Positions 8,546-47,951 of a DNA stretch of 64,000 bases are shown here, piece after piece. Source of the stretch: an uncultured Gammaproteobacteria bacterium (GTDB lineage: Bacteria > Patescibacteriota > Patescibacteriia > UBA9934); assembly GCA_964569575.1 (NCBI GenBank), contig CAZMTL010000004.1:8959-72958 (forward strand), read 5' to 3'. Both the position numbers and the translations under genes were made by a program. Position 1 is the first letter of the stretch, and each line of letters begins with the position of its first letter. The notes under the pieces were generated by a model. The model saw nothing but the letters and a program-made list of their open reading frames with translations, did no database searches and was not told the origin of the DNA.

Positions 8546-8686
8546 GACCTCTCCTGAAAAACGGCATTATCGCCTCGAAAAAGACAAATATTCTCTTCTT
8601 CAAGCCAACCAAGAATACAAATGCACTCTTGCTAATAACGAAAGAACATAACAAAAAAATGGCCCTCTGTCAACCAAAAAGCCAAA

Positions 8687-34413: not shown

Positions 34414-35145
34414 CTAGTATATCTCATCCGAAACCGCTCGTCGAAGACGCTGCAACTCCGCCTCACGACGCTCAACATCCGCCAAGATCGCTTCTGCATT
34501 CTTAGGCGCAATCAAGTTTTTCTTCGGAAAAGCACACACATCCACCAACGGACACGCCCAACATCGCGGAGCGGAAATACAAAGATAACGCCCGTGCTTC
34601 ACAAACACTTCATTCACCCGTTTCATTTGTTCTAGCGGAATAATTTTCAACAATTTCTTTTCCGTTGCCGCAGGTGTAGCCGCCTTCACCCACCCAAGTC
34701 GATTCGTAACTCGATGCACATGAGTATCCACGGCAATAGCAGGAACGCCATAAATATAAGGCAAAATCACACTAGCCGTTTTACGCCCAACTCCAGCGAG
34801 TGACGTTAATTCCTCCATGGTACCCGGGATCTTGCCATCAAAAACTTCCACCACTCGCAAAGCCATCTTCTTCAAATTTTTTGCCTTCTGCCGATACATG
34901 CCGATCGTATTGATCTTTGAACAAATAAATTGTTCGTCTGCCTTCGAAAGCGTTTCCACATCCGGAAATGCACGAAAAAACCCAGGAAGTAACTTCAACA
35001 CCTGCTCATCCCGCGTTCGAGCCGAAAGCGCCACAGCCACAACCGCATGATACGCCCCACCAATCTCCATCGCGCCAGGTTCTGGAAAGATTTTTTTCAA
35101 CGCCGTAAGAACGAAATCAATATCATCTTGCAACAATCTCTTCAT
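34414..35145 (-). CDS. nth: endonuclease III
   Basis: HhH-GPD fold (LAGVGRKTA) and a C-terminal 4Fe-4S Cys cluster (CxxxxxxCxxCxxxxxC). Confidence 0.9.
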   Translation of the reverse strand: MKRLLQDDIDFVLTALKKIFPEPGAMEIGGAYHAVVAVALSARTRDEQVLKLLPGFFRAFPDVETLSKADEQFICSKINTIGMYRQKAKNLKKMALRVVEVFDGKIPGTMEELTSLAGVGRKTASVILPYIYGVPAIAVDTHVHRVTNRLGWVKAATPAATEKKLLKIIPLEQMKRVNEVFVKHGRYLCISAPRCWACPLVDVCAFPKKNLIAPKNAEAILADVERREAELQRLRRAVSDEIY

Positions 35146-35147
35146 AT

Positions 35148-36749
35148 TTACAGCAAACTCGTCCCCGTCATATCAGGTGGCTGCGCGATGCCTAGGACCT
35201 GAAGTAATGTCGGAGCAACATCCGCCAATACACCCACCGGCGGCAAAAGCGAAAGATCACCATTCGGCACATCTCCCGATGGACCGGTCACTCCCTCGAA
35301 CTGATTTCCAATAACGAAAAATGGAACCGGATTCGTACTATGCTCCTTGTCGATCTCGTTCGTCTGCAAATTCAACACCTCCTCCACATTCCCGTGATCC
35401 GCCGTGATAAATACAACCCCGTCCTTCGCAAGCGTAGCTTCGACAATTCGCCGAACACAATCATCAATCACCTCATTTGCCTTAATCGAGGCAGGAAGAT
35501 TTCCAGTATGCGAAACCATGTCAGGATTCGCAAAATTCGCAATAATCACATCATAATTATCAACTCCAACTTCTTTCACGATACGGTCCGTAATTTGATA
35601 GGCGGACATTTCAGGCTGTTCATCGTACGAAGAAATGGAAGGCGATGGAATAATCACGCGATCTTCGTGTGGAAATGCATCTTCTTTCGCGCCGTTAAAG
35701 AAAAACGTAACGTGCGCATATTTCTCTGTCTCGGCAATATGAAGCTGAACAAGTCCATTGTTCGCCAATACTTCGGCGAGAGAATTTTGAAGAGGAATAG
35801 AAGGAAAGGCTATATCAACTGGCAAACCAACTTCATACTGCATCATGGTCACGAACTCAACGCCAGGAATATACGTACGTGCAAACTTATCAAAATCCGG
35901 CAGCACAAACGCCTTCGTAATCTCGCGAGCGCGATCTGGCCGGAAATTGAAAAAGATTACCGCATCACCCGTCTTCACCGTAGCAAGTGGTTCTTTCTTT
36001 TTCGTAAACACCGTTGGCACAAATTCTTCATCGTACACCTCTGCTGCATACGAAGCCTTCAACGCCTCAATAGGGTCATCCGACAAAACTTCCGATACAC
36101 CAAGCGCAATCGCGTTGTAAGCCTTCTCGATACGATCCCAACGATTATCACGATCCATCGCGAAATACCGCCCAGACATCGAAGCAATATACCCAACACG
36201 CAATTCATCCATCTTCTGCTGAAGCTCGGTGACAAATTCTAACCCTGAATTATACAAAGTATCTCGACCATCCAAAATCACATGCACAGCAACATCTTTT
36301 ACCTTGTGCTTTTTTGCCAATTCTAAAAGCGCATAACAATGCGCGTTATATCCGTGCACTTTACCCGAAGACATAATACCCAATAAATGCAGCGTTCCTC
36401 CAGACGACTTCACCTGTTCAATCGACTTCAAAAAATACTCATTCTCGAAAAAAGAACCATCCTGAATTGCGCGCTCAATACGCGGCAACGCTTGATAATA
36501 CACACGACCCGTTCCAATAGTAAGGTGACCTACCTCCGAATTTCCCATTTCACCCCACATTAATCCAACAGTTTCGCCCGAAGCACGCAAAGTCATCGAT
36601 GGATAACGCTGAATAATTTCTTTAAAAAACGGCATCTGCGCTCGGGTAACCGCATTACCATCCGAATCAGGTGCAACACCAAAACCGTCTAAAATCAATA
36701 AAACCGCTGGTCGCGGACGTTGAAAATTTGGTTGTTGAATATCTGCCAT
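35148..36749 (-). CDS. gpmI: 2,3-bisphosphoglycerate-independent phosphoglycerate mutase
   Basis: iPGM N-terminus (LLILDGFG) and metalloenzyme domain. Confidence 0.95.
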   Translation of the reverse strand: MADIQQPNFQRPRPAVLLILDGFGVAPDSDGNAVTRAQMPFFKEIIQRYPSMTLRASGETVGLMWGEMGNSEVGHLTIGTGRVYYQALPRIERAIQDGSFFENEYFLKSIEQVKSSGGTLHLLGIMSSGKVHGYNAHCYALLELAKKHKVKDVAVHVILDGRDTLYNSGLEFVTELQQKMDELRVGYIASMSGRYFAMDRDNRWDRIEKAYNAIALGVSEVLSDDPIEALKASYAAEVYDEEFVPTVFTKKKEPLATVKTGDAVIFFNFRPDRAREITKAFVLPDFDKFARTYIPGVEFVTMMQYEVGLPVDIAFPSIPLQNSLAEVLANNGLVQLHIAETEKYAHVTFFFNGAKEDAFPHEDRVIIPSPSISSYDEQPEMSAYQITDRIVKEVGVDNYDVIIANFANPDMVSHTGNLPASIKANEVIDDCVRRIVEATLAKDGVVFITADHGNVEEVLNLQTNEIDKEHSTNPVPFFVIGNQFEGVTGPSGDVPNGDLSLLPPVGVLADVAPTLLQVLGIAQPPDMTGTSLL

Positions 36750-36799
36750 ACAAAAAAGAGTATAGCAAAATTCGGGAAAAAATTCGAGCTTAAATCACA

Positions 36800-37117
36800 C
36801 TAACGAATCGCAACAGCATCAATTCCAGGACTAACATATTCAACTCGTTCAACCGGCGTAAGACCAAGTAGTTTTATACGACTAGACACACTTTGAACCG
36901 ATTGCAACTCGGCAATTTCCATCGCAAGACGAGCATTTTCGCGCTCCAATTCTTCGATCTGATCCTCTACTTCTCGCATAGCAAATCCCTTCGTTGCCGC
37001 AACATTCACCTGCCAAATAAAGAGACAAAACAACACAAACGATCCGACAACAAAAGCAATCGTCAAAAACCGGACATTGCTAATTTTAGTAAAAATTGTG
37101 TTCGTTTTTGCTGTCAT
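36800..37117 (-). CDS. ftsL: FtsL-like cell-division protein
   Basis: Small bitopic protein with a coiled coil, immediately downstream of mraZ-rsmH. Confidence 0.55.
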   Translation of the reverse strand: MTAKTNTIFTKISNVRFLTIAFVVGSFVLFCLFIWQVNVAATKGFAMREVEDQIEELERENARLAMEIAELQSVQSVSSRIKLLGLTPVERVEYVSPGIDAVAIR

Positions 37118-37145
37118 ACCTCCTTACCCTCCTACCAAGTTAATA

Positions 37146-38000
37146 TTAGATTTTCTCGGCTATTCTTAGCTTCGCACTACGAGATCGAGGATTCGATTTC
37201 TTTTCTGCAAAACTAGGTTGAATAGCTTTTTTGTTCACCTGAACTAAATCTGTTCTTGACTTTATCCACTGTTTCACCAAACGATCTTCCAACGAATGAA
37301 ACGTAATAACCACCAATCGACCACCAGTTTCGAGCAAGTCTACCGCTGCTGGTAACCCTTTTTCGATCTGACCAAATTCATCATTTACCACCAATCGAAG
37401 TGCCTGAAAAACACGAGTAGCCGGATGCGACTTACCGCTTCTTCGCACAACTCCAGCGACAATATCTGCCAGCTGCAAGGTTGTTTCGATTTTCTGTTTT
37501 TTTCGAGCTTCCAAAATCGCTTTCGCAATTTGCGGAGCCCAACTCTCTTCCCCGTAGACCCGGAACAATTTCATCAAGTCGTCCACCGACCATCCGTTTA
37601 CCACTTCGTAAGCAGTAAGCAATTGCCGTTGATCAAACCGCATATCGAGTGGACCGTCTTTTTGAAAAGAGAATCCTCGTTCCGCTTCGTCGACATGAGG
37701 AGAAGAAATTCCTAAGTCAAACAACGCTCCATGAATACGTGGCAATGCATGTTCGGCCAAATTCGCGAACGAATCATGAACAAACCGCACCCTGTCTTTG
37801 GCAAAGGAAAGACGATCTTTTGCAAATGCGAGATTTCGAGCATCGCGTTCGACGGCAATCAATTCACCGTTTGGCGCCGTGGCTCGCAAAATCGCTTCCG
37901 CATGACCACCCAACCCTAATGTTGCATCGAGTACTCGAACACCAGGCGATAACTTTAATCCCTCCAACGCCTCCTGCATGAATACCGGCACATGTTCCAT
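37146..38000 (-). CDS. rsmH: 16S rRNA m4C1402 methyltransferase RsmH
   Basis: VLDATLGLGGHAEAIL motif, with the start taken at MEHVPVFMQEAL. Confidence 0.9.
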   Translation of the reverse strand: MEHVPVFMQEALEGLKLSPGVRVLDATLGLGGHAEAILRATAPNGELIAVERDARNLAFAKDRLSFAKDRVRFVHDSFANLAEHALPRIHGALFDLGISSPHVDEAERGFSFQKDGPLDMRFDQRQLLTAYEVVNGWSVDDLMKLFRVYGEESWAPQIAKAILEARKKQKIETTLQLADIVAGVVRRSGKSHPATRVFQALRLVVNDEFGQIEKGLPAAVDLLETGGRLVVITFHSLEDRLVKQWIKSRTDLVQVNKKAIQPSFAEKKSNPRSRSAKLRIAEKI

Positions 38001-38025
38001 ACGATCTGTCTTACAGTTCAGGGAT

Positions 38026-38457
38026 TTAAATCCCCAAGTCCCCCAATTGTTCAGCAATGTCCGAAGCATCCGCTTCCGTCTGCTTACGGTACTGATCCCA
38101 CGCCTCCGCGTCCCATAATTCGAGCCGCGTACTAACCCCTACAATCACCACATTCTTCTTAATACCTGCATATTCACGCAAGTATTCCGGCACGACGAAC
38201 CTTCCCTGCTTATCCAAATTCACATCCATCGCACCCGCAAGCATGAGCCGAGCGAACGCACGAGAATTTGACTTCCCCAGGGGCAAATTAGAGAGCTTTT
38301 CAGCTAACTTACCCCACTCCTCCAAAGGGAGCAGGAACAGTGAAGAATCTAGACCTCGCGTAACAACCGCGCCCTTCGCAAGGTCGGAACGAAACTTCAC
38401 TGGGGTCGCTAGGCGCCCCTTGTCGTCGATATTGTGATGATATTCGCCAATAAACAT
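38026..38457 (-). CDS. mraZ: transcriptional regulator MraZ
   Basis: Duplicated SpoVT/AbrB-like halves (DDKGR...; DKQGRFVVP). Confidence 0.9.
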   Translation of the reverse strand: MFIGEYHHNIDDKGRLATPVKFRSDLAKGAVVTRGLDSSLFLLPLEEWGKLAEKLSNLPLGKSNSRAFARLMLAGAMDVNLDKQGRFVVPEYLREYAGIKKNVVIVGVSTRLELWDAEAWDQYRKQTEADASDIAEQLGDLGI

Positions 38458-38552
38458 AGATGCTTGTAGAAAGTAGACCTCCCTACTCGCTAAAGATGAC
38501 TTTCGTCACCAACTAGTTAAAAAGAACAAGCGGTTGTTTCCCGTCAGAAAAT

Positions 38553-38756
38553 CTGACAGCTGCCACAAATAATCGCACTACTCAGAGGCTTCTCCGAACA
38601 TCCGTCTTGCGACGGAAACTCTCGGAGAAGTCTCTCTCCAGCGATGACTCATGACAGGGGAAATTTCCCAAAACCACTTGTAAAAAAATACGACGAAAAA
38701 TACATTTCGTCTCAAGGGGCGTGACAGAAGCTAAATTTCCAAACAATCTGGAAATT
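38553..38756. promoter_or_regulatory. palindrome/hairpin-rich divergent control region between mraZ and the pseudo-Nudix gene
   Basis: Five hairpins or palindromes occur in about 200 nt. GTCAGA-AAA-TCTGAC is at 38553-67. A nested hairpin CTTCTCCGA...CCGTC-TTGC-GACGG...TCGGAGAAG is at 38589-38630. The perfect 12-mer GGGAAATTTCCC is at 38658-69. GACGAAA-N6-TTTCGTC is at 38692-711. AATTTCCA-N7-TGGAAATT is at 38734-56. Confidence 0.35.
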
Positions 38757-38883
38757 CCCCACTTTCTGCCTCGCTGCTTCCACTTTACCCCACTTCCGCC
38801 CCACCAGCAACCACCCTTCACCTAAACCTGTGGATAATTGACCAAACAAGTTAAAAACGCTACATTTCGAACGCAAAGGAGGC

Positions 38884-39444
38884 GTGATGCCTGACGACAT
38901 GGGACGACCAACCGCAGAGGAGATCCTGACGGATGGCGCGTACCTGAACGTGGACGCGGTACGTATGTACGAACTTCTCCAAAGGTGCATCGAGGAAACG
39001 GGAATGCTGCCTCAGTGGTACTTCGAGCACATGCCTCGAGTATTCCCTCAGGCCTGCATCGAACTGGCGGTCATGACCGTCCGATCCGGCAAGCGGCACA
39101 TCTTCCTGCTTCAACGACCAGACAACGATACGCACTGGCCGCGTCAGTGGCACATGCCCGGTACGACACTGTACCCAAAGGACAGCGAAGAAACGATGTG
39201 GAAACGGCTACTGGCATCCGAGCTCGGACAACTCCTCCGGCAAGAGATGTTCCGTCTCGCCTTCAACCACATCAGCACACGAGAAGAACGGGAACGCGGC
39301 GAGTGCATGCACGCCGTCTACACGGGACGCATCGGCACCGCATCGAAGAAGCTGGAACGCTTCGGAACCTTCTTTCCGGTCGATCAACTCCCGGAAGAAG
39401 TCATCCAACACCATCGAACCATACTCACCAGGCTCACCCACTAA
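38884..39444 (+). CDS. degenerate-Nudix-fold protein A (GC-rich copy)
   Basis: SD AAAGGAGG 5 nt before the ATG. It is a paralog of the next gene at about 45% identity, with a Nudix-like layout but a degraded Nudix box. GC is about 60%. Confidence 0.6.
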   Translation: MMPDDMGRPTAEEILTDGAYLNVDAVRMYELLQRCIEETGMLPQWYFEHMPRVFPQACIELAVMTVRSGKRHIFLLQRPDNDTHWPRQWHMPGTTLYPKDSEETMWKRLLASELGQLLRQEMFRLAFNHISTREERERGECMHAVYTGRIGTASKKLERFGTFFPVDQLPEEVIQHHRTILTRLTH

Positions 39445-39462
39445 GACCTGCGAGCTCCTCTC

Positions 39463-39490
39463 GGAACGCCACCTGGCGTTCCTTTCGTTT
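39463..39490 (+). terminator. intrinsic terminator
   Basis: GGAACGCCA-CC-TGGCGTTCC followed by TTTCGTTT. Confidence 0.5.
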
Positions 39491-39509
39491 ACAGAATAAA
39501 ATACTCAAT

Positions 39510-40013
39510 ATGAAATCTATTGATCTATCAAACATCATTCTCTCGCTCGAAAAGTACAGCTCAGAAAACAACGGCCAAATCCCACGTGATTGGTTCGAAA
39601 AAATGCCCATCTACTTCCCTCAAGCGGCTATCGAGCTAGGGATCATTAAAGAGATCAATAACTCTCATCACATCTTCCTCGCTCAAAGGCCAGCAGACGA
39701 TCCATATTGGCCCAGCGAATGGCACCTTCCGGGCACAGTCCTCCGCCACACAGACACAGAAAAAACAATTTGGAAAAGACTACTTTCTGATGAAGTGGAT
39801 GGGATAATACAACCTTCCGAAGCAAAACTGATCGATACACACATTTCGAGCAAACAAGATCGCGAACGCGGCGCGTGCGTTCACTCAATCTATCTCGCAA
39901 AAACAAATAAAGACATCAAAAGTGGTAAATTCTTCCCGATCATCGATTTACCGAAAAATACAATCAAGCACCACCTGCCACTCATCGAAAAAATTAAAAA
40001 ATCCCTAAAATAA
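39510..40013 (+). CDS. degenerate-Nudix-fold protein B (host-GC copy)
   Basis: HIFLAQRPADDPYWPSEWHLPGTVLRHTDTEKTIWKRLLSDEVDGI fits a Nudix scaffold with a substituted GX5EX7REUXEEXGU box. The C-terminal DRERGACVHSIY...FFPIIDLP region is shared with protein A. Confidence 0.6.
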   Translation: MKSIDLSNIILSLEKYSSENNGQIPRDWFEKMPIYFPQAAIELGIIKEINNSHHIFLAQRPADDPYWPSEWHLPGTVLRHTDTEKTIWKRLLSDEVDGIIQPSEAKLIDTHISSKQDRERGACVHSIYLAKTNKDIKSGKFFPIIDLPKNTIKHHLPLIEKIKKSLK

Positions 40014-40047
40014 CAACGAGGCCCCCGAAAGGACCTCAGCGTCTACT

Positions 40048-40437
40048 CTAGTGGTAGAACTCACGATGCTCGTGCACTGGTAGATCGAACACGAACGGAT
40101 CGTTCACGAACGACACTTCGATCTGACTTCGCAGATCACGAAGAGAACGTTCGAAGACTTCGATTCCACCAATCTGCTCAAGTAGCTCTTGAACATCTGG
40201 CAGTTGCCAACCCGGGAAATCTTCAGTCCAGTCGTCATTCGCTACGGCTGCGTAAAAGCACCACACCGATTCACGCGTACCGAACAGATGATACTCCCTA
40301 CCCTCCAACTCCCCCGTAGCCACGCTCTCGAGACTGAAATACACCAGTTCGAGCAGGTCGAGCATGCTCTTCTCGTGTTCATTCAGCAGCTCCACGAAAT
40401 GCAGAACAATGTGAACCAGGATCACGCATTCCTCCAA
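40048..40437 (-). CDS. hypothetical acidic protein
   Basis: ORF convergent with the Nudix pair, with no motifs. Its start is uncertain. Confidence 0.4.
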   Translation of the reverse strand: MEECVILVHIVLHFVELLNEHEKSMLDLLELVYFSLESVATGELEGREYHLFGTRESVWCFYAAVANDDWTEDFPGWQLPDVQELLEQIGGIEVFERSLRDLRSQIEVSFVNDPFVFDLPVHEHREFYH

Positions 40438-40479
40438 GCGACAAAAGAACTCTATAAAATTTAAGGTGAATCGTCAAAA

Positions 40480-41814
40480 TCACCGCTTCTTTCGCTTAAT
40501 CCCACTCGACTTCGCTCGCACCTGCTTGTGGTACACCTGCGAAAAACGGTGGGCTTCGTCACGAACTTTTTGAAAAATCACCTTCCCCATCGCGCTTGCT
40601 TTTGCCAAATCTAAATTGGTTCGATCAAAAATCAACCGATCCTGCTTGCGATCAAATCCTTTTGCAATCCCAATAATCGGCACCTGTATTCCCAGTTCAT
40701 CCAAAACTGCCTGCACGCGATTCACTTGCGGCTTTCCGCCATCTATCACCATCACCTGCGGCAACTCCCAAGCATCCGGAAACTGCTGAGCCTTTCGCAA
40801 GCGTCGACGCAGTACCTCTTCCATCATCCCAACATCATTCGCACCAACCACAGTGCGAATTTTAAATTTACGATACTTCTCTTTCGCCGGTTGCCCGTCC
40901 ACAAATACCGTCATCACACCAACAGCGGACGTTCCAGAAATATTCGAGATGTCGTACGCCTCAATTCTACCGTCCAAATCAATCGCTGTTCGTTCCTTCT
41001 GCTTACTAAACGGCAATTCAATATCATCCTTGGTAATCAAAGCAACGTCTTTAATGTGCTCCAACGCAAAAATGGTATTCCGAAACTGAGCCGCGTCTTC
41101 ATAACGCCGTTCAACCGATGCTTGAGTCATTTTTTTATTCATCTCTCGAATCAACTGAGATTTCTTCCCTTCAAAAAATAAAATCAACTGATGAATAATC
41201 TGTTTATACTCTTTTGGTGAAATTTCACCCGTACACACGCCCGGGCAACGACGCAGATGCCGATTAAAACAGGGGCGCTTCCGACCAGTCACCGAAGGCG
41301 GTTCACAATCCGACCAAGGAATAATCTTTCGCAAAAAATCCAACGACTTTTTTAACGAATATCCACTGGTATAAGGACCAAATACACGCAAAAACTTCTT
41401 TTTTGCCTTTGCAGACAACGTTGCGTCAAAAGGGTTAATCTCCAAATTCTCTAAATCCAACCCCCTCAGCAATTTCGGCTTTGGGTATTCTTCATTGGTA
41501 ATAACAAGATACAAAAAACTCTTATCATCCCGCTGAAGAATATTATATTTCGGCTTCAACGCTTTGATTTTATTCGCTTCTAACACCAGCGCCTCAATAA
41601 CAGTAGGTGTCTCGATATAATCAATGCGCGCAATTTGCGACACCATTTCACCGATCCGATTATCGTGCGCCTTAGTAAAGTACGACCCAACACGACGCTT
41701 CAACGACGTCGCCTTGCCTACATACAACAAATTTCCCGCCAAATCATAATAAAAATACACCCCAGGTACATCGGGTAATTCATTATTTTTGATTGTAATT
41801 TCTGGCGAGATCAT
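40480..41814 (-). CDS. uvrC: excinuclease ABC subunit C (short form)
   Basis: N-terminal GIY-YIG (VPGVYFYYD...LLYVGKA), UvrBC-interaction region and RNase H-like endonuclease domain. Confidence 0.9.
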   Translation of the reverse strand: MISPEITIKNNELPDVPGVYFYYDLAGNLLYVGKATSLKRRVGSYFTKAHDNRIGEMVSQIARIDYIETPTVIEALVLEANKIKALKPKYNILQRDDKSFLYLVITNEEYPKPKLLRGLDLENLEINPFDATLSAKAKKKFLRVFGPYTSGYSLKKSLDFLRKIIPWSDCEPPSVTGRKRPCFNRHLRRCPGVCTGEISPKEYKQIIHQLILFFEGKKSQLIREMNKKMTQASVERRYEDAAQFRNTIFALEHIKDVALITKDDIELPFSKQKERTAIDLDGRIEAYDISNISGTSAVGVMTVFVDGQPAKEKYRKFKIRTVVGANDVGMMEEVLRRRLRKAQQFPDAWELPQVMVIDGGKPQVNRVQAVLDELGIQVPIIGIAKGFDRKQDRLIFDRTNLDLAKASAMGKVIFQKVRDEAHRFSQVYHKQVRAKSSGIKRKKR

Positions 41815-41944
41815 GAAGTAAGTATAGCAAAATTATAACACCGAAAAGAACGGCTCCTAGATACACGATAAAGTCTCCATCCCTATTCCCTATCTTCCTA
41901 CCCCCTTCATCAAGGACAATCCAAAGTAAGCTACAGAATGCAAC

Positions 41945-44473
41945 CTACTTCACATTCTTCTTCCTCAAATAAGGCTTCAAATACTGTCCCGTATAACTCT
42001 TAGCCGAACGAGCAATATCCTCCGGAGTCCCTTCTGCAACAACCATTCCTCCACCAACTCCACCCTCTGGACCCATGTCGATTAACCAGTCAGCCGTTTT
42101 GATCACATCCAAATTGTGTTCAATGATCAAAACCGTATTTCCTTTCTCGACCAAACGATGCAACACCTCAAGTAATGTCTTAATATCTTCGAAGTGAAGT
42201 CCTGTCGTCGGCTCGTCGAGTAAATAAAGTGTTCGGCCCGTATTTCGCTTCGCAAGTTCAGAAGCCAACTTCACACGCTGAGCCTCACCACCCGAAAGCG
42301 TATTTGCAGACTGACCTAGCTTCAAATAACCAAGCCCAACGCTCACGAGTGTTACCAACTTATCGTGAACAGAAGGAATGTCCTTAAAAAACTCCGTTGC
42401 TTCCTCGATCGTCATCTCCAAAACTTGAAAAATATTCTTTTCTTTAAATTCAACCTCCAACGTTTCACGATTAAATCGTCGCCCTTTACACACATCACAC
42501 TGCACATACACCGTTGGCAAGAAATGCATTTCGATCGCAATTTCCCCATGCCCCTCACAATGATCACAACGTCCACCCGCCACGTTAAAGCTAAAACGAC
42601 CAGTTTTATATCCACGGAACTTCGCTTCATCCGTCGTAGCAAACAAATCACGAATCGGCGTCCAAGCTCCGGTATAAGTAGCTGGGTTAGATCTAGACGT
42701 TCGTCCAATCGGAGATTGATCCATCAAAATTGCCTTATCGATGTACTCAATGCCCAAAACAGATTTATGAGCACCAGGCTTCCCTTTGCTGCCGTACAAC
42801 TTTTTCGCAATCGCTTTGTAAGTCACTTCCAACATCAAGGTCGACTTCCCGCTTCCAGAAACACCTGTAATACAAACCATGCGTCGAAGCGGAATATCAA
42901 CATCTACATTCTTCAAATTGTTCTCGGTAGCTCCCCGAACCTTAATCGCATCCTTCCCAACCTTTCTGCGCTCGGTAGGAACCGGAATAACGCGATCACC
43001 CCGCAGATACGCCGCGGTCAGCGATTTCTTATCTTCAAAAATCTCGGGCGTTGGTCCGGCAGCAACAATCTCCCCTCCGTGCACACCAGCACTCGGTCCA
43101 ACCTCGACCATGTAATCCGATCGCCGAATGGTATCTTCGTCATGCTCTACAACCAACACGGTATTCCCCAAATCTCGCAACGATTCAAGCGTATTAATCA
43201 ACTGATCGTTATCACGTTGATGCAGACCAATCGTTGGTTCATCAAGTACATACAAAGCACCAACCAAACGCGAACCAATTTGCGAAGCTAAACGAATACG
43301 TTGCGCTTCACCCCCAGAAAGCGTCCCGGCCTTACGATCGAGCGTTAAATAATGCAACCCAACATCCAACATAAACGTCAATCGGCTTTCGATCTCTTTC
43401 AATACGGTTCCAGCAATTTCCAACCCACGCTCGTCTAACGCGATATGTAGAATGAAATCTGCGGCTTCCGAAATCGTTTTCGCTGTGTACTGAACAATAT
43501 TTTCACCACCAATAAGCACACTCAACGCCTCCTTGCGCAATCGCTTCCCATCACACGCGGGACAAATTTCTTCAGAGAAAAGCTCGAGCGTTCCTAACCC
43601 AGTACACGCTTCACAAGCTCCATAGGGACTATTGAACGAAAAAAGTCGTGGCTCGATTTCTGGAAACGAAAATCCACAATTTACACAACTAAATTTAGTA
43701 GAAAACAACCGCTCTTCCCCTGACGCGTACACCACATTCACCAAATCCTGTCCGCGATCAACCGCATTTTCGAGCGCTTCATTCAAGCGTTGACGCGTGT
43801 CCTTGTCCGGATCCTTTAGGCTAACCTGTGGAATAACATCGATAACCACTTCGATCGTATGCTGCTTATAGCGAGAAAGCTTAATTTCTTCACTCAAACG
43901 ATGCATCTTGCCATCTACCCGCACCTTTGCGAATCCTGAATTATACAAATCATACAATAACTGATAATAATTCCCCTTTCGACCACGAACAACCGGAGCC
44001 AAAATTTGAATTTCGCCAGAAGGAATCGCCTTTTCCTTTGCATTTTGCTTCATCAACAAATCAGAAATTTCATCAATCGTTAAACGCTCAATTCTCGATT
44101 TACAATCAGGACAATGCGCCTCACCAACACGCGCGTAAAGAACACGAAGGTAATCGTAAATTTCCGTCACCGTCGCCACAGTTGAACGCGGGTTTCGAGA
44201 ATGTGCTTTTTGATCAATCGAAATAGCTGGTGACAACCCTTCGATTTCGTCTACATCCGGCTTTTGCATCTGACCCAAAAATTGCCGTGCATAAGCAGAA
44301 AGCGATTCGATATAACGACGCTGCCCTTCCGCAAAAATCGTATCAAAAGCGAGGGAAGATTTTCCGCTTCCCGACACGCCAGTAAAACAAATAAGTTGAT
44401 TTCGAGGCAATTCGAGTGAAACATTTTTTAAGTTATGCTCACGCGCACCCTTGATTGTAATTTTTTCTTTCAT
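41945..44473 (-). CDS. uvrA: excinuclease ABC subunit A
   Basis: Two ABC ATPase modules and Zn fingers. The start is [17 protein letters not shown]. The ORF track extends the frame to 44899, and that extension is read-through of the GC-rich intergenic element. Confidence 0.95.
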
Positions 44474-45221
44474 ATATAATTGTTGAGATGTTGATAGCGT
44501 TCTCGTGGTGAGATCGGCGTCGCATCGGCGAAAGGAGGCCCCCATGTCTCGTGGAGCAGTGAACGCTGGACGAACGCGTCCAGCCGAGACCACGCGTCGC
44601 CCGGCAATGCAGGTGCATTGCCGGGACCGATCGGGCGCACGACGCGCTTCGAACGGAGGTGAGCAGTCTCGATCCGTCGTGCCCGGCGTGACCACCTCCG
44701 GAAACGGAGACGGTCGAAGCCCGCGAGCGCGCGAACAGCGCTGCGGTGGTGGTGGGCTCGCGCCCATCCGAGGAGCTTCACCCGACGAAGAGTCCAGGTG
44801 CCCGGGGGCGTCGGAACGGGCGAACCCGGGCACGCCAACGCAGACACGAAGGCCAGCGTCCGGCCGAGGAGGTGAGGAGTCTCGATCCATCACGCCCAAC
44901 TACGCGAGCGATTCCGCAACCGGAAACGCTCGCGAACAGCTGTACTGTGGCAACGGGGGACTTTCCTCCACACCAGGATCTGGACACGACTACCGTGCAC
45001 CGGGCTTCGGAGGCAAGAAGCACATCAAGGACCCTCGAGGAAAGAAGCGCGGCGACAACCCGCGAGGAATTCCGCATCTCCCTCGACGAATTCGACTGCC
45101 CACGCACCCGGGCATGCAATGGACTCCGGCCAAGAAGCCTTAGCCGAACACAATTGACGTACAGACGAAACCCGCCAGGCGATCGTCATCTGCCCTGCAA
45201 AAGCAGGGCCTTTCATTTTTT
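44474..45221 (+). ncRNA. candidate large structured RNA or structured DNA element in the uvrB-uvrA spacer (about 65% GC)
   Basis: Perfect hairpins occur at 12 bp (CCCGGCAATGCA-GG-TGCATTGCCGGG, 44600-25), 8 bp (GCTGGACG-AACG-CGTCCAGC) and 9 bp (GTGCCCGGG...CCCGGGCAC). There are two GAAA-tetraloop hairpins (CTCCG-GAAA-CGGAG and CGAGCG...CCGGAAA-CGCTCG). An imperfect module is repeated twice (GGAGGTGAGSAGTCTCGATCC...CCGGAAACG...CGCGAACAGC). A TATAAT-like box lies at the 5' end and a plus-strand terminator at the 3' end. Strand and RNA nature are inferred. Confidence 0.4.
45192..45221 (+). terminator. plus-strand intrinsic terminator
   Basis: GCCCTGC-AAAA-GCAGGGC followed by CTTTCATTTTTT. The T-run overlaps the uvrB stop codon. 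Confidence 0.55.
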
Positions 45222-47270
45222 AGAAGAACGTTTTTTCATCTTTTTTAACTCGGACTGCAATTCAATAATCTCATCTCGCAATATCCCTGCCGTTTCAAAC
45301 TGCAAATTAGCCGCTGCCAACTCCATCTCCTCTGTCTTCTCACGAATCACCTCTTCGATTTCGTGCGGCTCTGCAGCCAGTTCGATCTTCAAGATATTTT
45401 TCGTATCTTTCTTTTCACCCGGCTCTGCAACCCCCATGATTTCGCTGACATTTTGGATGGACTTAGTAATCGTAATCGGAGTAATTCCATGCTTTTCGTT
45501 GTGTGCCAGCTGAATCGTACGACGGCGATTGGTTTCATCGAGCGCTCGAGTGAGCGAACCGGTCATGCGATCCGCGTACAAGATCACTTCTCCATGGATA
45601 TTTCGTGCCGCTCGTCCAATGGTTTGAATCAACGACATTTCCGACCGCAGAAACCCTTCCTTGTCCGCGTCCAAAATAGCCACCAATGACACCTCCGGCA
45701 AATCCAGCCCTTCACGTAACAAGTTCACCCCAATAATAACGTCGTAAATCCCCTTGCGTAGATCGGTCAATATTTCGATACGCTCGATCGTTTTGATATC
45801 AGAATGGATATATTGAACCTTGATTCCCAGCTCTTTCAAATGCTCGGTCAAATCTTCAGCCATCTTTTTTGTAAGCGTTGTCACCAAACTTCGCTCACCT
45901 TTCGCTGTTCTATCTTGAATACGCGGAATCAAATCATCTACCTGACCTCGATGATCATCTGTTTCGGTCACCGGAAGTACAGTCACAATCGGGTCGACCA
46001 ATCCGGTCGGTCGTACGATCTGTTCAACAATTCGATCTGATGAATCATATTCTTGTTCACCGGGCGTTGCAGAGACATAAATCGTCTGCCCTACTCGTTC
46101 TTCGAATTCTTTTGATGTCAAAGGTCGATTGTCGCGAGCTGACGGCAGTCGGAACCCATGTTCTACCAAATTATCTTTCCGCGCCTTATCGCCAGCAAAC
46201 ATTCCACGAATCTGAGGAATAGTCACATGAGATTCGTCGATAACCGTCAGAAAATCCTTGGGAAAATAGGCAAGCAATGTATCCGGTGGTTCACCAGCAT
46301 TTCTGCCATCAAAATGCCGAGAGTAGTTTTCGATCCCATTACAGTAGCCAATACTCTTCATCATTTCGATATCGTACTTGGTTCGTCGCTGCAAACGTTC
46401 GTATTCAAGCAACTTTTCCTCCTGCTTAAATTCCGCTAACCGCATTGCAAGTTCATCTTCGATTTGCCGAACCGCCCTTTCCGTATGTTCCGCGCCAACA
46501 ACATAATGTTTCGCGGGAAACAGCCAAAAATCCTGCACGCGATCTTTCACTCGCCGAGTAACGGGATCGAGAATAAAAATCTCGCGCAAAACACCATCTT
46601 CAATCACCAACCGATACAACGAAGTCTTCTCGTTCGCATCCCCGCTTCCAGAACGCCCAGACATCGGCATAATCTCGATCACGTCCCCCATCGCTCTAAA
46701 CTGTCCACGCTCTACATCCGCATTCGTTCGCTCAAAATACATTTCGATCAATCGTCTAATCAGTTCCGAACGATCCGCAACCTGTCCCGCCTTCAAGTTC
46801 ATCACCGTTTTAGAATATTCCTTCGGCGAACCTAATCCATAAATGCACGAAACCGAAGCAACGATAATCACATCCTGCCGGCTCAATAACGCCTGAGTCG
46901 CCGCATGTCGCAAACGATCGATCTCTTCATTAATCTGAGCTTCTTTTTCGATATACGTATCGGAACGGGCAATGTAAGCCTCTGGCTGATAATAATCGTA
47001 ATAACTCACAAAGTACTCAACCGCATTTTCGGGGAAAAACTGTCTAAATTCATTACAAAGCTGAGCTGCCAACGTTTTATTATGAGCAATCACAAGCGTT
47101 GGTCGCTGGACCTGCTGAATCACATTCGCAATCGTAAACGTCTTTCCAGAACCAGTAACACCAAGCAACGTCTGGCGATCCAGTCCAGTTTGAAGACCAT
47201 CAACCAACCCCGCAATTGCCTTGGGTTGATCGCCAGCCGGTTTGTATTTTGATTGTAGGTTAAATTTCAT
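45213..47270 (-). CDS. uvrB: excinuclease ABC subunit B
   Basis: Helicase motifs (GVTGSGKT), beta-hairpin region and a C-terminal UVR domain. Confidence 0.95.
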   Translation of the reverse strand: MKFNLQSKYKPAGDQPKAIAGLVDGLQTGLDRQTLLGVTGSGKTFTIANVIQQVQRPTLVIAHNKTLAAQLCNEFRQFFPENAVEYFVSYYDYYQPEAYIARSDTYIEKEAQINEEIDRLRHAATQALLSRQDVIIVASVSCIYGLGSPKEYSKTVMNLKAGQVADRSELIRRLIEMYFERTNADVERGQFRAMGDVIEIMPMSGRSGSGDANEKTSLYRLVIEDGVLREIFILDPVTRRVKDRVQDFWLFPAKHYVVGAEHTERAVRQIEDELAMRLAEFKQEEKLLEYERLQRRTKYDIEMMKSIGYCNGIENYSRHFDGRNAGEPPDTLLAYFPKDFLTVIDESHVTIPQIRGMFAGDKARKDNLVEHGFRLPSARDNRPLTSKEFEERVGQTIYVSATPGEQEYDSSDRIVEQIVRPTGLVDPIVTVLPVTETDDHRGQVDDLIPRIQDRTAKGERSLVTTLTKKMAEDLTEHLKELGIKVQYIHSDIKTIERIEILTDLRKGIYDVIIGVNLLREGLDLPEVSLVAILDADKEGFLRSEMSLIQTIGRAARNIHGEVILYADRMTGSLTRALDETNRRRTIQLAHNEKHGITPITITKSIQNVSEIMGVAEPGEKKDTKNILKIELAAEPHEIEEVIREKTEEMELAAANLQFETAGILRDEIIELQSELKKMKKRSSKK

Positions 47271-47435
47271 AACAAAATTGCCCGACTCCACGCTCTACTA
47301 CAAAGTAGATGACGCTTTTGGGATCGGGATCGTTCGTAAATTGTAAAACCAGCATAGCACACTTAAAGAAGAAAACAAAAACGCGCCCCTTCTTGCAAAG
47401 TGAGCGCGCAGCATGCAGTGAAGCATGAATTCCTC

Positions 47436-47645
47436 CTATTCGTCTTCGGTAGTGTGGCGACGATTACCACGAGTGGTGCGGACGTATCCGCGTTTAGAGT
47501 GATACCCGCCGCCATTACGACGGCGAAGTGCCACCAGATCGGTACGCCGACCCTGCGGAAGCACGACAACGATCCGAAGATCATCCTCGCGCTTCTGTTC
47601 CTTGGTCCTACCAACAGGCTTCGAAGCCTTCCGCTTCTTCGCCAT
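47436..47645 (-). CDS. small highly basic protein (69 aa) in GC-rich cassette
   Basis: Perfect SD AGGAGGTG 4 nt before the ATG. Lys/Arg-rich (MAKKRKASKPVGRTKEQKRED...RRRNGGGYHSKRG), suggesting nucleic-acid binding. Confidence 0.5.
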   Translation of the reverse strand: MAKKRKASKPVGRTKEQKREDDLRIVVVLPQGRRTDLVALRRRNGGGYHSKRGYVRTTRGNRRHTTEDE

Positions 47646-47662
47646 CTCTCACCTCCTGGTGC

Positions 47663-47872
47663 TCACAACCACGTGAGCACGTACATCTTCACGCGATGAA
47701 ATGCGCTCGAGCGCACCACCGAGTGGACCACCTCCGGAAGCTGAGGCTCCCAGTACAGGGAGTTGAGCTTGCCAGTGAGCTCGACCGTCCCTTCCAGGAA
47801 CGACCGAACCCGACCGGGCTTGAGATCGAACTTCTCGAGAATGAATCCCGAGATCAAACCCCATAGAATCAT
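47663..47872 (-). CDS. small membrane protein (69 aa from the ATG) in GC-rich cassette
   Basis: N-terminal TM helix (MILWGLISGFIL) and SD GGAGGG upstream. The ORF track extends the frame to a TTG at 47887. Confidence 0.4.
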   Translation of the reverse strand: MILWGLISGFILEKFDLKPGRVRSFLEGTVELTGKLNSLYWEPQLPEVVHSVVRSSAFHRVKMYVLTWL

Positions 47873-47951
47873 GATCCCTCCAATCAAGACACACCACAGT
47901 ATACCAAAAAAGAGGCTTTGTCAACCTCTTTTCTTCTCTACCACCTACACT

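What the first reader, a model, noticed from the sequence alone, without database searches (positions are those of the whole stretch)
38458..40480. Accessory island after mraZ: tandem degenerate-Nudix paralogs of contrasting GC, plus an acidic ORF
Two adjacent same-strand genes of about 170-185 aa are clearly homologous. They share HIFLxQRP, W(H)xPGT, TxWKRLL, (R/D)ERGxCxH, FFPxxxLP and HH. The upstream copy is about 60% GC and the downstream copy is at host GC. This suggests the GC-rich copy was acquired horizontally as a xenolog and inserted next to its resident homolog, rather than arising by simple duplication. Both fit a Nudix scaffold, but the catalytic Nudix box is degraded (GG to GT, REx2EE to KRLLSDE), so they may be non-catalytic binders. 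Each copy has its own SD/promoter and terminator. A convergent acidic ORF (40048..40437) completes the island. The island sits where ftsI and the rest of the dcw cluster usually follow mraZ-rsmH-ftsL.
Basis: partly seen in the sequence, partly recalled or inferred. Interest (0 to 1): 0.6.

Follow-up and report, generated by a model that had tools for sequence, protein, structure and literature searches.

The report
Paired variant-Nudix genes beside mraZ
Two neighbouring genes in a candidate-phyla-radiation (CPR) bacterium belong to an unstudied branch of the Nudix enzyme family whose altered active-site motif is fixed across the branch; it probably acts on sugar-nucleotides, and its members recur as pairs with different base composition.

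Summary
Copy 1 (38887-39444, 57.6% GC, GC3 69%) and copy 2 (39510-40013, 42.7% GC) are 41% identical paralogs, and both fold as Nudix domains.

Three parts of the interpretation need correcting.
- The "degraded" Nudix box is a fixed signature of a large CPR family, [T/S]x5[D/E]x7R[L/I/V]x3E. It carries the same two substitutions as GDP-mannose mannosyl hydrolase (GDPMH).
- The pair lies upstream of and divergent from mraZ, not where ftsI would follow. At least 7 related lineages keep a family member in this mraZ-uvrC slot.
- Copy 1 is not a recent arrival. The nearest relatives carry a single gene in the slot that is most similar to copy 1. It is also GC-rich (+10 to +16 points over its flanks) and also has a Shine-Dalgarno (SD) ribosome-binding site. 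Copy 2 is the extra gene, with host GC and a host-style leaderless start.

Pairing recurs elsewhere in the family: a triple tandem array that also shows a GC contrast, a divergent pair, and fusions.

Distant members sit in dTDP/NDP-sugar clusters. My best guess is a dimeric enzyme or binder for NDP-sugars. This is inferred, not shown. The cause of the GC-rich, SD-led class is unexplained. Interest is moderate.

The parts
38641..38680 (.). Conserved intergenic block A (GATGACTCATGACAGGGGAAATTTCCC...CTTG), containing the perfect palindrome GGGAAATTTCCC
   Evidence: Conserved in all four aligned lineages (window, L001, L003, L009) in alignment A4. Its function was not tested.
38754..38815 (-). 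MraZ-box-like repeat array: (A)AAGTGG(GG) repeats at about 10 and 21 nt spacing, read on the mraZ strand
   Evidence: Conserved across window, L001, L003 and L009, and also present in L028. The AAGTGG-N4-AAGTGG pattern occurs only once in the 64 kb window. It matches the Mollicutes MraZ site, described as direct repeats of AAAGTG[T/G] (PMC8475190). Binding is inferred.
38829..38837 (-). DnaA-box-like TTATCCACA
   Evidence: Read from the sequence. TTATCCAC is conserved at the aligned place in L001, L003 and L028. The DnaA-box consensus is from memory. Function was not tested.
38838..38866 (+). Promoter-like site for copy 1 (TTGACC-17-TACATT)
   Evidence: Consensus scan, 9 of 12 matches. L003 has TTGACA-17-TACAAT at the aligned position.
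38875..38882 (+). Strong Shine-Dalgarno sequence AAAGGAGG, 4 nt before the copy 1 ATG
   Evidence: It is atypical for this genome, where 4 of 38 genes have an SD-like motif.
38887..39444 (+). Copy 1: GC-rich, SD-led variant-Nudix gene (185 aa, identical to P0001)
   Evidence: It is the positional ortholog, and the more similar of the two copies, of P0002 and P0003.
39463..39492 (+). Terminator-like hairpin GGAACGCCACCTGGCGTTCC followed by a T-rich tail, after copy 1
39497..39502 (+). -10-like TAAAAT, 7 nt upstream of the copy 2 ATG (host-typical leaderless-type start, no SD)
   Evidence: 20 of 37 window genes have TANNNT ending 5-13 nt before the start codon, against 9% at random positions.
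39510..40013 (+). Copy 2: host-GC variant-Nudix paralog (167 aa)
   Evidence: It keeps all family invariants.
40017..40038 (.). G+C-rich hairpin between the convergent copy 2 and acidic ORF. The T-run is on the minus strand.
40048..40437 (-). Acidic ORFan (129 aa from TTG, or 105 aa from the ATG at 40365), downstream of uvrC on the same strand
   Evidence: ORF listed. GC1/2/3 pattern is coding-like. No Pfam, NCBIfam, PHROG or PADLOC hit. No phage hit. No homolog in the syntenic loci. There is no evidence that it belongs functionally with the Nudix pair.

Best explanation
**Shown**
- The two genes are intact paralogs of a large, uncharacterised Nudix-fold family that, in the genomes sampled, occurs only in candidate-phyla-radiation (CPR, Patescibacteria) bacteria.
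- The family has two N-terminal helices, a Nudix domain, and a fixed variant box [T/S]x5[D/E]x7-R-[L/I/V]-x3-E. Its other near-invariant residues are E59, R77, D81, W84, H89, R137-G138 and P169.
- In this Uhrbacteria-like group, the gap between the mraZ control region and uvrC is a conserved home for the family.
- Copy 1 (GC-rich, SD-led) corresponds to the single gene in the nearest relatives. Copy 2 (host GC, leaderless-type start) is an additional old paralog kept only in this genome.

**Inferred**
- The family binds, and probably hydrolyses, a nucleoside-diphosphate sugar. It would use a one-metal mechanism like GDP-mannose mannosyl hydrolase (GDPMH), which keeps the box Arg and the last Glu and lacks the usual general-base Glu.
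- The working unit is a dimer. The two products here would form a heterodimer or two specialised homodimers.
- Transcription of copy 1 starts about 40 nt from MraZ-box repeats. Its expression may therefore be coupled to the division and cell-wall operon, trimming envelope sugar-nucleotide pools.
For: **Paralogy and fold**
-.

**Family size and signature**
- 860 cluster representatives at E<1e-3.
- Residue frequencies in 165 sequences: R77 100%, H89 98%, G92 99%, R107 96%, position 108 L/I/V 96%, E112 96%, R137 98%.
- All named genome hits are CPR: Saccharibacteria, Peribacteria, Uhrbacteria, Daviesbacteria, Parcubacteria.

**Slot conservation**
- A family member lies divergent from mraZ and/or convergent with uvrC in L001/2, L003-5/13/14, L009, L028, L031/32 and L033.

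**Copy 1 orthology**
- Identity with P0002 is 52% and with P0003 46%, tracking MraZ (87%, 80%) and RsmH (68%, 56%). Copy 2 is 41-43% identical to all of them.
- A copy 1 + copy 2 sister grouping appears in only 2.5-8% of bootstraps.

**GDPMH-like box**
- The verified 1RYA sequence has ERLTMAELG, against KRLLASELG in copy 1.
- hhalign of the family against GDPMH gives probability 85.5%. It aligns D22/E59, R37/R77, G50/G92, R65/R107 and E70/E112.
- GDPMH appears among the Foldseek hits at TM 0.58-0.59.
- The best NCBIfam hit of a family member (L023b) is GDPMH, though weak.

**NDP-sugar context of distant members**
- rmlA/B/C/D, DegT, GT2 and FdtA/WbuC-like cupins lie next to the gene in L006, L017, L023/24, L025, L026/27 and L031.

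**Pairing**
- Three tandem copies in L023/24 and two divergent copies in L017.
- A canonical Nudix gene is the divergent neighbour in L008 and L021.
- Single-chain fusions exist: family+family (P0029, P0097, P0137) and family+canonical Nudix (P0032, P0034).

**Precedent and regulation**
- Cell-wall Nudix enzymes with an N-terminal helix bundle that form dimers, encoded next to division genes: UDP-X diphosphatase (PMC3655063).
- MraZ-box-like repeats are conserved in the intergenic region (PMC8475190).
Against: - No biochemical data exist for any family member.
- No rml, NDP-sugar or glycosyltransferase homolog was found in this 64 kb window. The sugar link therefore rests on relatives only 25-33% identical.
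- The best structural neighbours are non-catalytic Nudix domains: NrtR (E=2e-9) and AraR. GDPMH ranks only 36th to 49th.
- The family profile matches MutT-type sequences better than GDPMH (E=1.6e-5 vs 0.03).
- The GDPMH catalytic His124 and Tyr103 could not be mapped, because hhalign coverage stops at residue 103.
- Heterodimer formation was not modelled.
- Phylogenetic support is weak. Copy 1 groups with P0002 in 31-60% of bootstraps.
- MraZ binding is inferred from sequence only.
Confidence: 0.45

Rival explanations
1. Xenologous displacement caught midway, the closest viable form of the reader's idea. A native host-GC, leaderless-type gene (the copy 2 type, as in L031 and L009) originally held the slot. 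A foreign GC-rich, SD-led homolog was inserted next to the mraZ control region in the common ancestor of the window, L001 and L003 lineages. The native copy was later lost in the relatives and survives only here.
For: - Copy 1 has two non-host traits: GC3 z=+3.9 and a strong SD in a genome with 4 of 38 SD-led genes. Copy 2 has the host-typical -10 directly before its ATG.
- Across the family, 9 of 10 GC-rich members are SD-led, against 0 of 9 host-GC members (Fisher p=1.2e-4).
- Other GC-rich, SD-led ORFs in these genomes are variable ORFans.
- The slot holds only a host-GC type in L009 and L031, only a GC-rich type in L001, L003, L028 and L033, and both here.
- P0030 (L028) is only 30% identical to copy 1 although MraZ is 80% identical. 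This suggests that more than one GC-rich lineage has entered the slot.
Against: - Copy 2 is no closer to the host-GC slot genes (41% to P0005, 36% to P0026) than to the GC-rich ones (43%, 41%).
- The GC excess persists (+10 to +16 points; GC3 0.58-0.94) in orthologs that have diverged to 46-55% identity. Amelioration after a single old transfer should have removed it.
- No donor, mobile-element gene, phage match or plasmid match was found.
Confidence: 0.3
2. Non-catalytic ligand sensor. The proteins would be stand-alone Nudix-like binding domains of the kind found in NrtR (binds ADP-ribose), AraR (binds arabinose) or the TRPM2 NUDT9-H domain. They would bind a nucleotide or sugar without cleaving it and act through protein partners.
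For: - The top Foldseek neighbours of both models are the NrtR and AraR Nudix-like domains and the MUTYH C-terminal domain.
- Two of the three box glutamates are absent in the whole family.
- Frequent pairing or fusion with a canonical Nudix fits a regulatory pseudoenzyme subunit.
Against: - There is no DNA-binding or other effector domain. The models end in a single helix.
- Near-total conservation of R77, H89, R107, E112 and R137 across 165 sequences resembles an active site and matches the residues GDPMH uses.
- Foldseek TM-scores are similar for catalytic and non-catalytic Nudix proteins (0.54-0.64), so the ranking discriminates poorly.
Confidence: 0.3
3. DNA-repair-linked nucleotide sanitiser or 8-oxoG reader. 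This would be either a MutT-like 8-oxo-dGTPase or a free MutY-C-terminal-like domain working with the nearby glycosylase, given the neighbours uvrC, uvrA, uvrB and an HhH-GPD glycosylase.
For: - The best weak sequence matches are to MutT models and MutT structures.
- The MUTYH C-terminal domain is among the top fold hits.
- Pfam NUDIX_4 gives a sub-threshold hit to copy 1 (16.3 bits against a 35-bit cutoff).
- uvrC is adjacent in every syntenic lineage where the contig extends beyond the gene.
Against: - The equivalents of the MutT catalytic residues E53 and E56 are L/I/V and a variable residue throughout the family.
- The nearby glycosylase is Nth-type, not MutY-type (185 vs 99 bits).
- uvrC is convergent, so it is not co-transcribed with the pair.
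- Family members outside this group lie in sugar-nucleotide clusters, not repair clusters.
Confidence: 0.07
4. Recent in-lineage tandem duplication, followed by very fast divergence and a compositional shift in one copy.
For: - Adjacent, same strand, same length class, all invariants shared.
- The family evolves fast: 29-55% identity where MraZ is 75-87% identical.
- Tandem arrays occur elsewhere in the family.
Against: - Copy 1 is closer to P0002 (52%) than to copy 2 (42%).
- The copy 1 + copy 2 clade appears in only 2.5% (BLOSUM NJ) and 8% (Dayhoff-recoded) of bootstraps.
- The two copies have different translation-initiation architectures.
Confidence: 0.1

Closest known systems
GDP-mannose mannosyl hydrolase (GDPMH; Gmm/WcaH/NudD; PDB 1RYA)
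   Same: - Nudix fold.
- The same two departures from the canonical box: R-L instead of R-E, and the first Glu of the EE pair lost, giving RLxxxELG.
- The N-terminal segment before strand 1 also aligns (hhalign probability 85.5%).
- Aligned residues D22/E59, R37/R77, G50/G92, R65/R107 and E70/E112 are family invariants.
- It is encoded inside a sugar-nucleotide or polysaccharide cluster, as distant members of this family are. That GDPMH sits in the colanic-acid cluster is from memory.
   Different: - No NCBIfam GDPMH hit for either window protein. The family profile matches 1RYA only at E=0.03.
- PGT replaces PGG.
- R52 is not conserved. His124 and Tyr103 could not be mapped.
- The family has extra invariants (W84, H89, R137-G138, C-terminal HH) and two extra N-terminal helices.
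- The window pair is not in a sugar cluster.
Nudix-like ligand-binding domains of the regulators NrtR (3GZ8/3GZ5) and AraR (5BS6/5DEQ)
   Same: - They are the best structural neighbours of both models: E=2e-9 for copy 2 against NrtR and E=5.5e-7 for copy 1 against AraR.
- They have a degenerate Nudix box.
- They bind ADP-ribose or a sugar.
   Different: - Those proteins carry a C-terminal winged-helix DNA-binding domain, which is absent here.
- In this family the remaining box residues are almost invariant.
UDP-X diphosphatase (S. pneumoniae SP_1669) / CDP-Chase family
   Same: - N-terminal helical element plus a C-terminal Nudix domain, about 170-210 aa.
- Dimeric.
- Encoded next to cell-wall and division genes and acts on cell-wall sugar-nucleotide precursors (PMC3655063).
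- CDP-Chase (6NCH) appears among the copy 1 fold hits.
   Different: - That family keeps a canonical Nudix box with catalytic glutamates.
- It is reported only from Gram-positive bacteria.
- No significant sequence match to this family was found.
MutT (8-oxo-dGTP diphosphatase)
   Same: Best, though weak, sequence-profile matches: 4V14 at E=1.6e-5, and NCBIfam MutT at 17-24 bits. The core fold is shared.
   Different: - Scores are far below the cutoffs of 98-148 bits.
- The equivalents of the general-base and metal-binding glutamates E53 and E56 are absent family-wide.

Membership tests
Nudix superfamily (fold level) | Alpha/beta/alpha Nudix fold of about 130 residues | tested here: met
   The AF2 models have pLDDT 78 (copy 1) and 94.7 (copy 2). 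Foldseek against PDB gives 154 and 275 hits at E<=1e-3, and all 50 listed hits for each model are Nudix-fold proteins.
Nudix superfamily (fold level) | Pfam PF00293 match at or above the gathering score | tested here: inconclusive
   Copy 1 scores 25.9 bits against a 21.1-bit cutoff, so it passes. Copy 2 has no hit at E<=1.
Canonical Nudix pyrophosphohydrolases (MutT-type) | Nudix box GX5EX7REUXEEXGU with catalytic Glu residues (MutT E53, E56, E57) | tested here: not met
   The aligned box is T93-x5-D99-x7-R107-L108-L-A-S111-E112. Across 165 family sequences, position 108 is L/I/V in 96% and never E. Position 111 is E in 10%.
GDP-mannose mannosyl hydrolase (GDPMH) | Modified box R-L-x-x-x-E-x-G that keeps the Arg and the single metal-binding Glu | tested here: met
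   The 1RYA sequence was verified. ERLTMAELG in GDPMH aligns with KRLLASELG in copy 1 and KRLLSDEVD in copy 2.
GDP-mannose mannosyl hydrolase (GDPMH) | Match to the curated family model (NCBIfam PRK15434) above its cutoff | tested here: not met
   Neither window protein hits it at E<=0.1. The relative L023b scores only 21 bits against a 146-bit cutoff.
GDP-mannose mannosyl hydrolase (GDPMH) | Catalytic base His124 and Tyr103 (residue roles recalled from the GDPMH structure papers, not re-read here) | tested here: inconclusive
   The hhalign alignment ends at GDPMH residue 103.
GDP-mannose mannosyl hydrolase (GDPMH) | Gene embedded in an NDP-sugar or polysaccharide biosynthesis cluster | tested here: not met
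   No rml, DegT, GT2 or FdtA homolog was found in the 64 kb window. The feature is met for distant family members in L006, L017 and L023-L027, and a cupin gene is adjacent in L031.
NrtR/AraR Nudix-related transcription regulators | C-terminal winged-helix DNA-binding domain fused to the Nudix-like domain | tested here: not met
   The proteins are 167-185 aa and end with one helix after the Nudix domain. No HTH family hit was found.
MutY C-terminal domain (Pfam NUDIX_4) | PF14815 match above cutoff and fusion to, or partnership with, a MutY-type HhH-GPD catalytic domain | tested here: not met
   Copy 1 scores 16.3 bits against a 35-bit cutoff, and copy 2 has no hit. The nearby HhH-GPD protein scores as Nth (185 bits), not MutY (99 bits).
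UDP-X diphosphatase / CDP-Chase family | N-terminal helix bundle plus a canonical Nudix box | tested here: not met
   Two N-terminal helices are present in the models. The box is not canonical.

The most novel reading that the evidence does not exclude
A CPR-wide "paired Nudix" module. One host-composition subunit and one or more GC-rich, SD-led subunits would assemble into a heteromeric enzyme or sensor for sugar-nucleotides. It would use GDPMH-like chemistry, and in this lineage it would be wired to the MraZ operator so that envelope precursor pools follow the division programme.

The GC-rich, SD-led state would be actively maintained. Possible causes are a distinct translation mode in otherwise leaderless genomes, or recurrent recombination at a hypervariable locus. 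It would not be a fading trace of transfer.
Probability: 0.15. Interest if true: 0.7.

Novelty: new variant of a known kind. Interest (0 to 1): 0.42.

Why it matters
- **An unannotated family.** CPR bacteria have tiny genomes and depend on scavenged nucleotides and sugars. A family of at least 860 sequence clusters is conserved across several CPR phyla, mostly invisible to Pfam and annotated as hypothetical. It is a reasonable candidate for a missing step in their sugar-nucleotide and envelope metabolism.
- **A testable mechanistic lead.** The family keeps exactly the box residues that the one Nudix enzyme known to cleave at carbon (GDPMH) keeps.
- **A caution for genome scans.** In these genomes, high GC plus an SD marks a recurrent gene class, not necessarily a recent arrival. 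Synteny in relatives reversed the call on which copy is resident and which is the newcomer.
- **An unexplained pattern.** GC-rich, SD-led genes sit among SD-less, leaderless-type core genes. This is cheap to test at scale.

Tried and rejected
**Mobile-element or defence origin: no support**
- PHROGs and PADLOC gave no meaningful hit.
- tblastn of copy 1 against phage and plasmid collections found nothing.
- An IMG/VR scan found no relative.

**Structured RNA**
- No Rfam hit at E<=1 in 38000-48000, which includes copy 1 and the other GC-rich patches in that range. Only two tRNAs were found in the whole window.

**Split-MutY idea**
- Rejected. The nearby glycosylase is Nth-type.

**Acidic ORF as part of the system: no evidence**
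- It has no family hits, no homolog in any syntenic locus, and no similarity to the ORF at the same position in L001.

**Phylogeny**
- NJ trees with BLOSUM distances and with Dayhoff-6 recoding give low support everywhere. The orthology call therefore rests mainly on synteny plus pairwise identities.

- The word-index homolog searches returned few proteins (3, 19 and 2 hits). The exhaustive profile search was what revealed the family.
- Exact-sequence lookups of P0001 and copy 2 found no contigs.

**FdtA-like cupins**
- The cupins next to the gene in L031 and L006 are only weakly similar to each other.

Full report
**1. What is there**

The region lies between mraZ (38026-38457, minus strand) and uvrC (40480-41814, minus strand). 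It contains, in order:
- a 429-nt intergenic region;
- copy 1 (ATG 38887 to 39444, plus strand, 185 aa, identical to the database protein P0001);
- a 65-nt spacer with a hairpin and T-tract;
- copy 2 (39510-40013, plus strand, 167 aa);
- a G+C-rich hairpin;
- an acidic ORF on the minus strand (40048-40437).

Base composition is as follows.

| Feature | GC | GC3 | Note |
|---|---|---|---|
| Copy 1 | 57.6% | 69.4% | Highest GC3 of 60 window ORFs (mean 45.4%, sd 6.1%) |
| Copy 2 | 42.7% | 47% | |
| Acidic ORF | 51.5-52.2% | 58-61% | Range reflects the two possible starts |
| Whole window | 46.0% | | |

Two descriptive claims fail.
- mraZ-rsmH-ftsL run on the minus strand, so the pair is upstream of and divergent from mraZ. 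The place where ftsI "should" follow ftsL is at about 36750-36800, where a phosphoglycerate mutase gene sits. The relatives have the same arrangement.
- Copy 2 has no Shine-Dalgarno sequence.

**2. Fold and family**

*Profile matches.* Pfam NUDIX matches copy 1 just above threshold (25.9 vs 21.1 bits) and misses copy 2. NCBIfam gives only far-sub-threshold MutT-type matches.

*Structure.* AlphaFold models are confident: pLDDT 78 for copy 1 from a 4-sequence alignment, and 94.7 for copy 2 from 19 sequences. Each shows two N-terminal helices, a Nudix alpha/beta/alpha core and a C-terminal helix. Foldseek against PDB returns only Nudix-fold proteins. The top hits are the non-catalytic domains of NrtR and AraR and the MUTYH C-terminal domain. 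Catalytic MutT, Ap4A hydrolase, ADP-ribose pyrophosphatases and GDPMH follow at similar TM-scores of 0.54-0.64.

*Family size.* An exhaustive profile search found 860 cluster representatives at E<1e-3 and 325 at E<1e-10. Sources call them "hypothetical protein", and most have no Pfam hit. Every genome hit with an organism name is CPR/Patescibacteria.

*Signature.* In 165 aligned family sequences:

| Position (copy 1 numbering) | Residue | Frequency |
|---|---|---|
| 59 | E | 95% |
| 77 | R | 100% |
| 81 | D | 93% |
| 89 | H | 98% |
| 92 | G | 99% |
| 93 | T/S | 89% |
| 99 | D/E | 94% |
| 107 | R | 96% |
| 108 | L/I/V (never E) | 96% |
| 112 | E | 96% |
| 137 | R | 98% |
| 138 | G | 94% |
| 169 | P | 99% |

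The non-canonical box is therefore a conserved family signature, not decay in these two genes. Both copies keep every invariant.

**3. The box is the GDPMH variant**

I recalled the E. coli GDP-mannose mannosyl hydrolase sequence and verified it as 1RYA. Its box reads G-x5-E-x7-R-L-T-M-A-E-L-G. That is the same pair of substitutions as here: Arg-Leu for Arg-Glu, and loss of the first Glu of the EE pair.

hhalign of the 40-sequence family alignment against GDPMH gives probability 85.5% over 100 columns, including the segment before the first strand. It pairs GDPMH D22, R37, G50, R65 and E70 with the family invariants E59, R77, G92, R107 and E112. The roles of these GDPMH residues, and of His124 and Tyr103, are from my memory of the GDPMH structure papers. 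The last two could not be mapped.

A review of the Nudix clan notes that GDP-sugar glycosyl hydrolases have lost key box residues, in line with their different chemistry (PMC5389931).

This is a resemblance in mechanism-relevant residues, not family membership. No curated GDPMH model is matched, and the profile-to-1RYA E-value is only 0.03.

**4. Genomic context**

*Conserved slot.* In the window's own group, a family member lies divergent from mraZ and/or convergent with uvrC in these loci:
- L001/L002 (P0002)
- L003/4/5/13/14 (P0003)
- L028 (P0030)
- L031/32 (P0005)
- L033 (P0007)
- L009 (P0026, a Candidatus Uhrbacteria MAG)

*Rate of change.* Flanking proteins are well conserved: MraZ 75-87%, UvrC 67-76%, UvrA 78-85%. 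The Nudix-like proteins are only 29-55% identical. The slot occupant therefore evolves very fast or is replaced.

*Variable extras.* Other ORFs in the slot differ between lineages. They are the acidic ORF here, an unrelated 103-aa ORF in L001, and a cupin plus a 127-aa ORF in L031.

*Sugar-nucleotide link.* Outside this group the gene sits in sugar-nucleotide neighbourhoods:
- Next to RmlB and RmlC, or an RmlC-RmlD fusion, in L006 and L017.
- After an epimerase and a DegT aminotransferase in L023/24.
- Among UDP-glucose dehydrogenase, RmlA, RmlB and RmlC genes in L025.
- Between rmlABCD and GT2 glycosyltransferases in L026/27.
- In the mraZ slot of L031, an FdtA/WbuC-like cupin lies beside it.

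Other contexts are nucleotide salvage in L007, and an amidase plus DivIC in L020. The 64 kb window itself has no rml-type gene.

**5. Pairing is a family habit**

A family HMM run over all fetched loci gave these results.
- L023/L024 have three tandem copies. Their GC is 40.8%, 49.6% and 54.2% in a locus of 37.7% GC. This is an independent case of adjacent paralogs with contrasting GC.
- L017 has two divergent copies that are 36% identical.

L008 and L021 have a canonical-type Nudix gene as the divergent neighbour. Single chains fuse two family domains (P0029, P0097, P0137) or a family domain with a canonical Nudix domain (P0032, P0034).

Nudix enzymes such as GDPMH and the cell-wall UDP-X diphosphatase are dimers. 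The latter uses an N-terminal helix pair to dimerise and is encoded beside division genes (PMC3655063). I infer a dimeric working unit and, in this genome, a heterodimer or two specialised homodimers.

**6. Which copy is resident**

The single slot gene of the two closest relatives compares as follows.

| Relative | Identity to copy 1 | Identity to copy 2 | MraZ identity | RsmH identity |
|---|---|---|---|---|
| P0002 (L001) | 52% | 43% | 87% | 68% |
| P0003 (L003) | 46% | 41% | 80% | 56% |

The copy 1 values follow the species distances. NJ trees place copy 1 with P0002 in 60% of bootstraps and with P0002+P0003 in 50%. After Dayhoff recoding these fall to 31% and 18%. A copy 1 + copy 2 clade appears in only 2.5-8%.

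Those orthologs are also GC-rich against their flanks. The excess is confined to the ORF.

| Gene | Gene GC | GC3 | Flank GC |
|---|---|---|---|
| P0002 (L001) | 66.5% | 94% | 50.5% |
| P0003 (L003) | 51.9% | 58% | 42.3% |

Other slot or family genes are likewise elevated: P0030 at 55.1 vs 43.0%, P0007 at 59%, P0004 at 65% and P0009 at 60.1 vs 47.9%. P0005 (35.1 vs 41.5%) and P0026 (38.4 vs 41.7%) are not.

Copy 1 is therefore the positional ortholog and the more similar of the two copies, and copy 2 is the extra gene. A recent acquisition of copy 1 by this genome is not supported.

**7. A second marker: translation signals**

The window genome is SD-poor (4 of 38 genes). It is rich in -10-like hexamers ending 5-13 nt before the start codon: 20 of 37 genes, against 9% at random positions. 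That is a leaderless-type architecture. Copy 2 fits this pattern. Copy 1 instead has AAAGGAGG.

Across the family, 9 of 10 GC-rich members have a strong SD, against 0 of 9 host-GC members. Fisher's exact test gives p=1.2e-4, though the samples are not phylogenetically independent.

In relatives, only 10 of 72 neighbouring genes have an SD-like motif. Several of those are GC-rich ORFans or accessory genes. These genomes thus carry a class of GC-rich, SD-led genes among SD-less core genes.

Two facts cut in opposite directions.
- The GC excess persists in orthologs only 46-55% identical, which argues against simple unameliorated transfer.
- P0030 is only 30% identical to copy 1 at an MraZ distance of 80%, which suggests more than one GC-rich lineage has occupied the slot.

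I could not resolve this. No donor and no mobile-element link was found.

**8. Regulatory region**

Alignment of the mraZ-nud intergenic region from four lineages shows two conserved blocks.
- Block B (38754-38815), read on the mraZ strand, is a run of (A)AAGTGG(GG) repeats spaced about 10 and 21 nt apart. The 10-nt-spaced pair is unique in the window. The repeat matches the Mollicutes MraZ site AAAGTG[T/G] (PMC8475190).
- Block B lies about 40 nt upstream of the promoter-like site of copy 1 (38838-38866), which is conserved as TTGACA-17-TACAAT in L003. It is about 300 nt from the mraZ start.

Shared control by MraZ is an inference.

**9. Verdict**

The pair is real and belongs to an unstudied, CPR-restricted variant of the Nudix superfamily. 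The most likely function is binding or hydrolysis of an NDP-sugar by a dimer with GDPMH-like chemistry, possibly tied to the division operon. I give this moderate-to-low confidence because it rests on motif analogy and on the context of distant relatives.

The evolutionary reading by the first stage is reversed in one key respect, and its location argument is wrong.

The recurrent contrast between GC-rich, SD-led and host-type paralogs is the most curious result and remains unexplained.

Noticed in passing
window 38641-38680 and 38754-38837: The mraZ upstream region holds three elements conserved across four or five lineages. They are a block with the perfect palindrome GGGAAATTTCCC, an array of AAGTGG(GG) repeats resembling MraZ boxes, and a TTATCCACA DnaA-box-like site (in L003 an inverted pair, TTATCCAC...GTGGATAA).
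   Followed up: partly
whole window (38 gene starts): The genome appears to use mostly leaderless or very short-leader mRNAs. 20 of 37 genes have a TANNNT hexamer ending 5-13 nt before the start codon (9% at random positions). Only 4 of 38 have an SD-like motif: ftsL, copy 1, the 18429-20039 gene and the GC-rich ORF at 53896-54681.
   Followed up: partly
window 8001-8600, 47292-47951, 53896-54681; L001 10853-11164 and 12663-12995; L029 531-1178; L031 4433-4861: Other ORF-sized GC-rich patches (54-58% GC in a 46% genome) hold small ORFs, often acidic, with no Pfam, PHROG or PADLOC hit. In relatives the GC-rich ORFs (GC3 0.65-0.81) are the ones that carry SD motifs. This suggests a compositional class of accessory genes.
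   Followed up: partly
window 44471-45212: A 742-nt stretch between uvrA and uvrB has 63.5% GC, peaking at 68%. It contains an internal duplication of about 200-213 nt (for example GGAGGTGAGCAGTCTCGATCC at 44655 and 44868). It has no Rfam hit at E<=1 and no Pfam hit for its ORFs. The RNA fold z-score is -2.2 on the minus strand. L001 has a 57% GC gap at the same place, with no detectable sequence similarity.
   Followed up: partly
window 41945-44899: The listed 984-aa uvrA ORF starts at a TTG inside the GC-rich patch. Relatives' UvrA (838-839 aa) aligns from about 44470, so the N-terminal 143 residues are probably not translated.
   Followed up: partly
L023 5093-7086 (and L024): A Parcubacteria locus has three tandem family paralogs after an epimerase and a DegT aminotransferase. 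Their GC rises stepwise (40.8, 49.6, 54.2%), and only the two GC-rich copies have an SD. The middle copy has PGG and gives a weak NCBIfam GDPMH hit.
   Followed up: yes
P0032 (528 aa), P0034 (452 aa), P0029/P0097/P0137: These are Rosetta-stone fusions. The variant-Nudix domain is fused to a canonical ADP-ribose-pyrophosphatase-like Nudix domain in either order, or duplicated within one chain.
   Followed up: partly
window 34414-38457 and the syntenic loci L001, L028, L031: In this group the dcw-type start mraZ-rsmH-ftsL is followed by phosphoglycerate mutase, endonuclease III and a PAP2 phosphatase rather than ftsI and the mur genes. This order is conserved across relatives.
   Followed up: partly
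window 37146-38069 / 38026-38457: The listed rsmH ORF overlaps the 3' end of mraZ by 44 nt. Relatives' RsmH aligns only from about residue 22-26, so the true rsmH start is probably further downstream.
   Followed up: no
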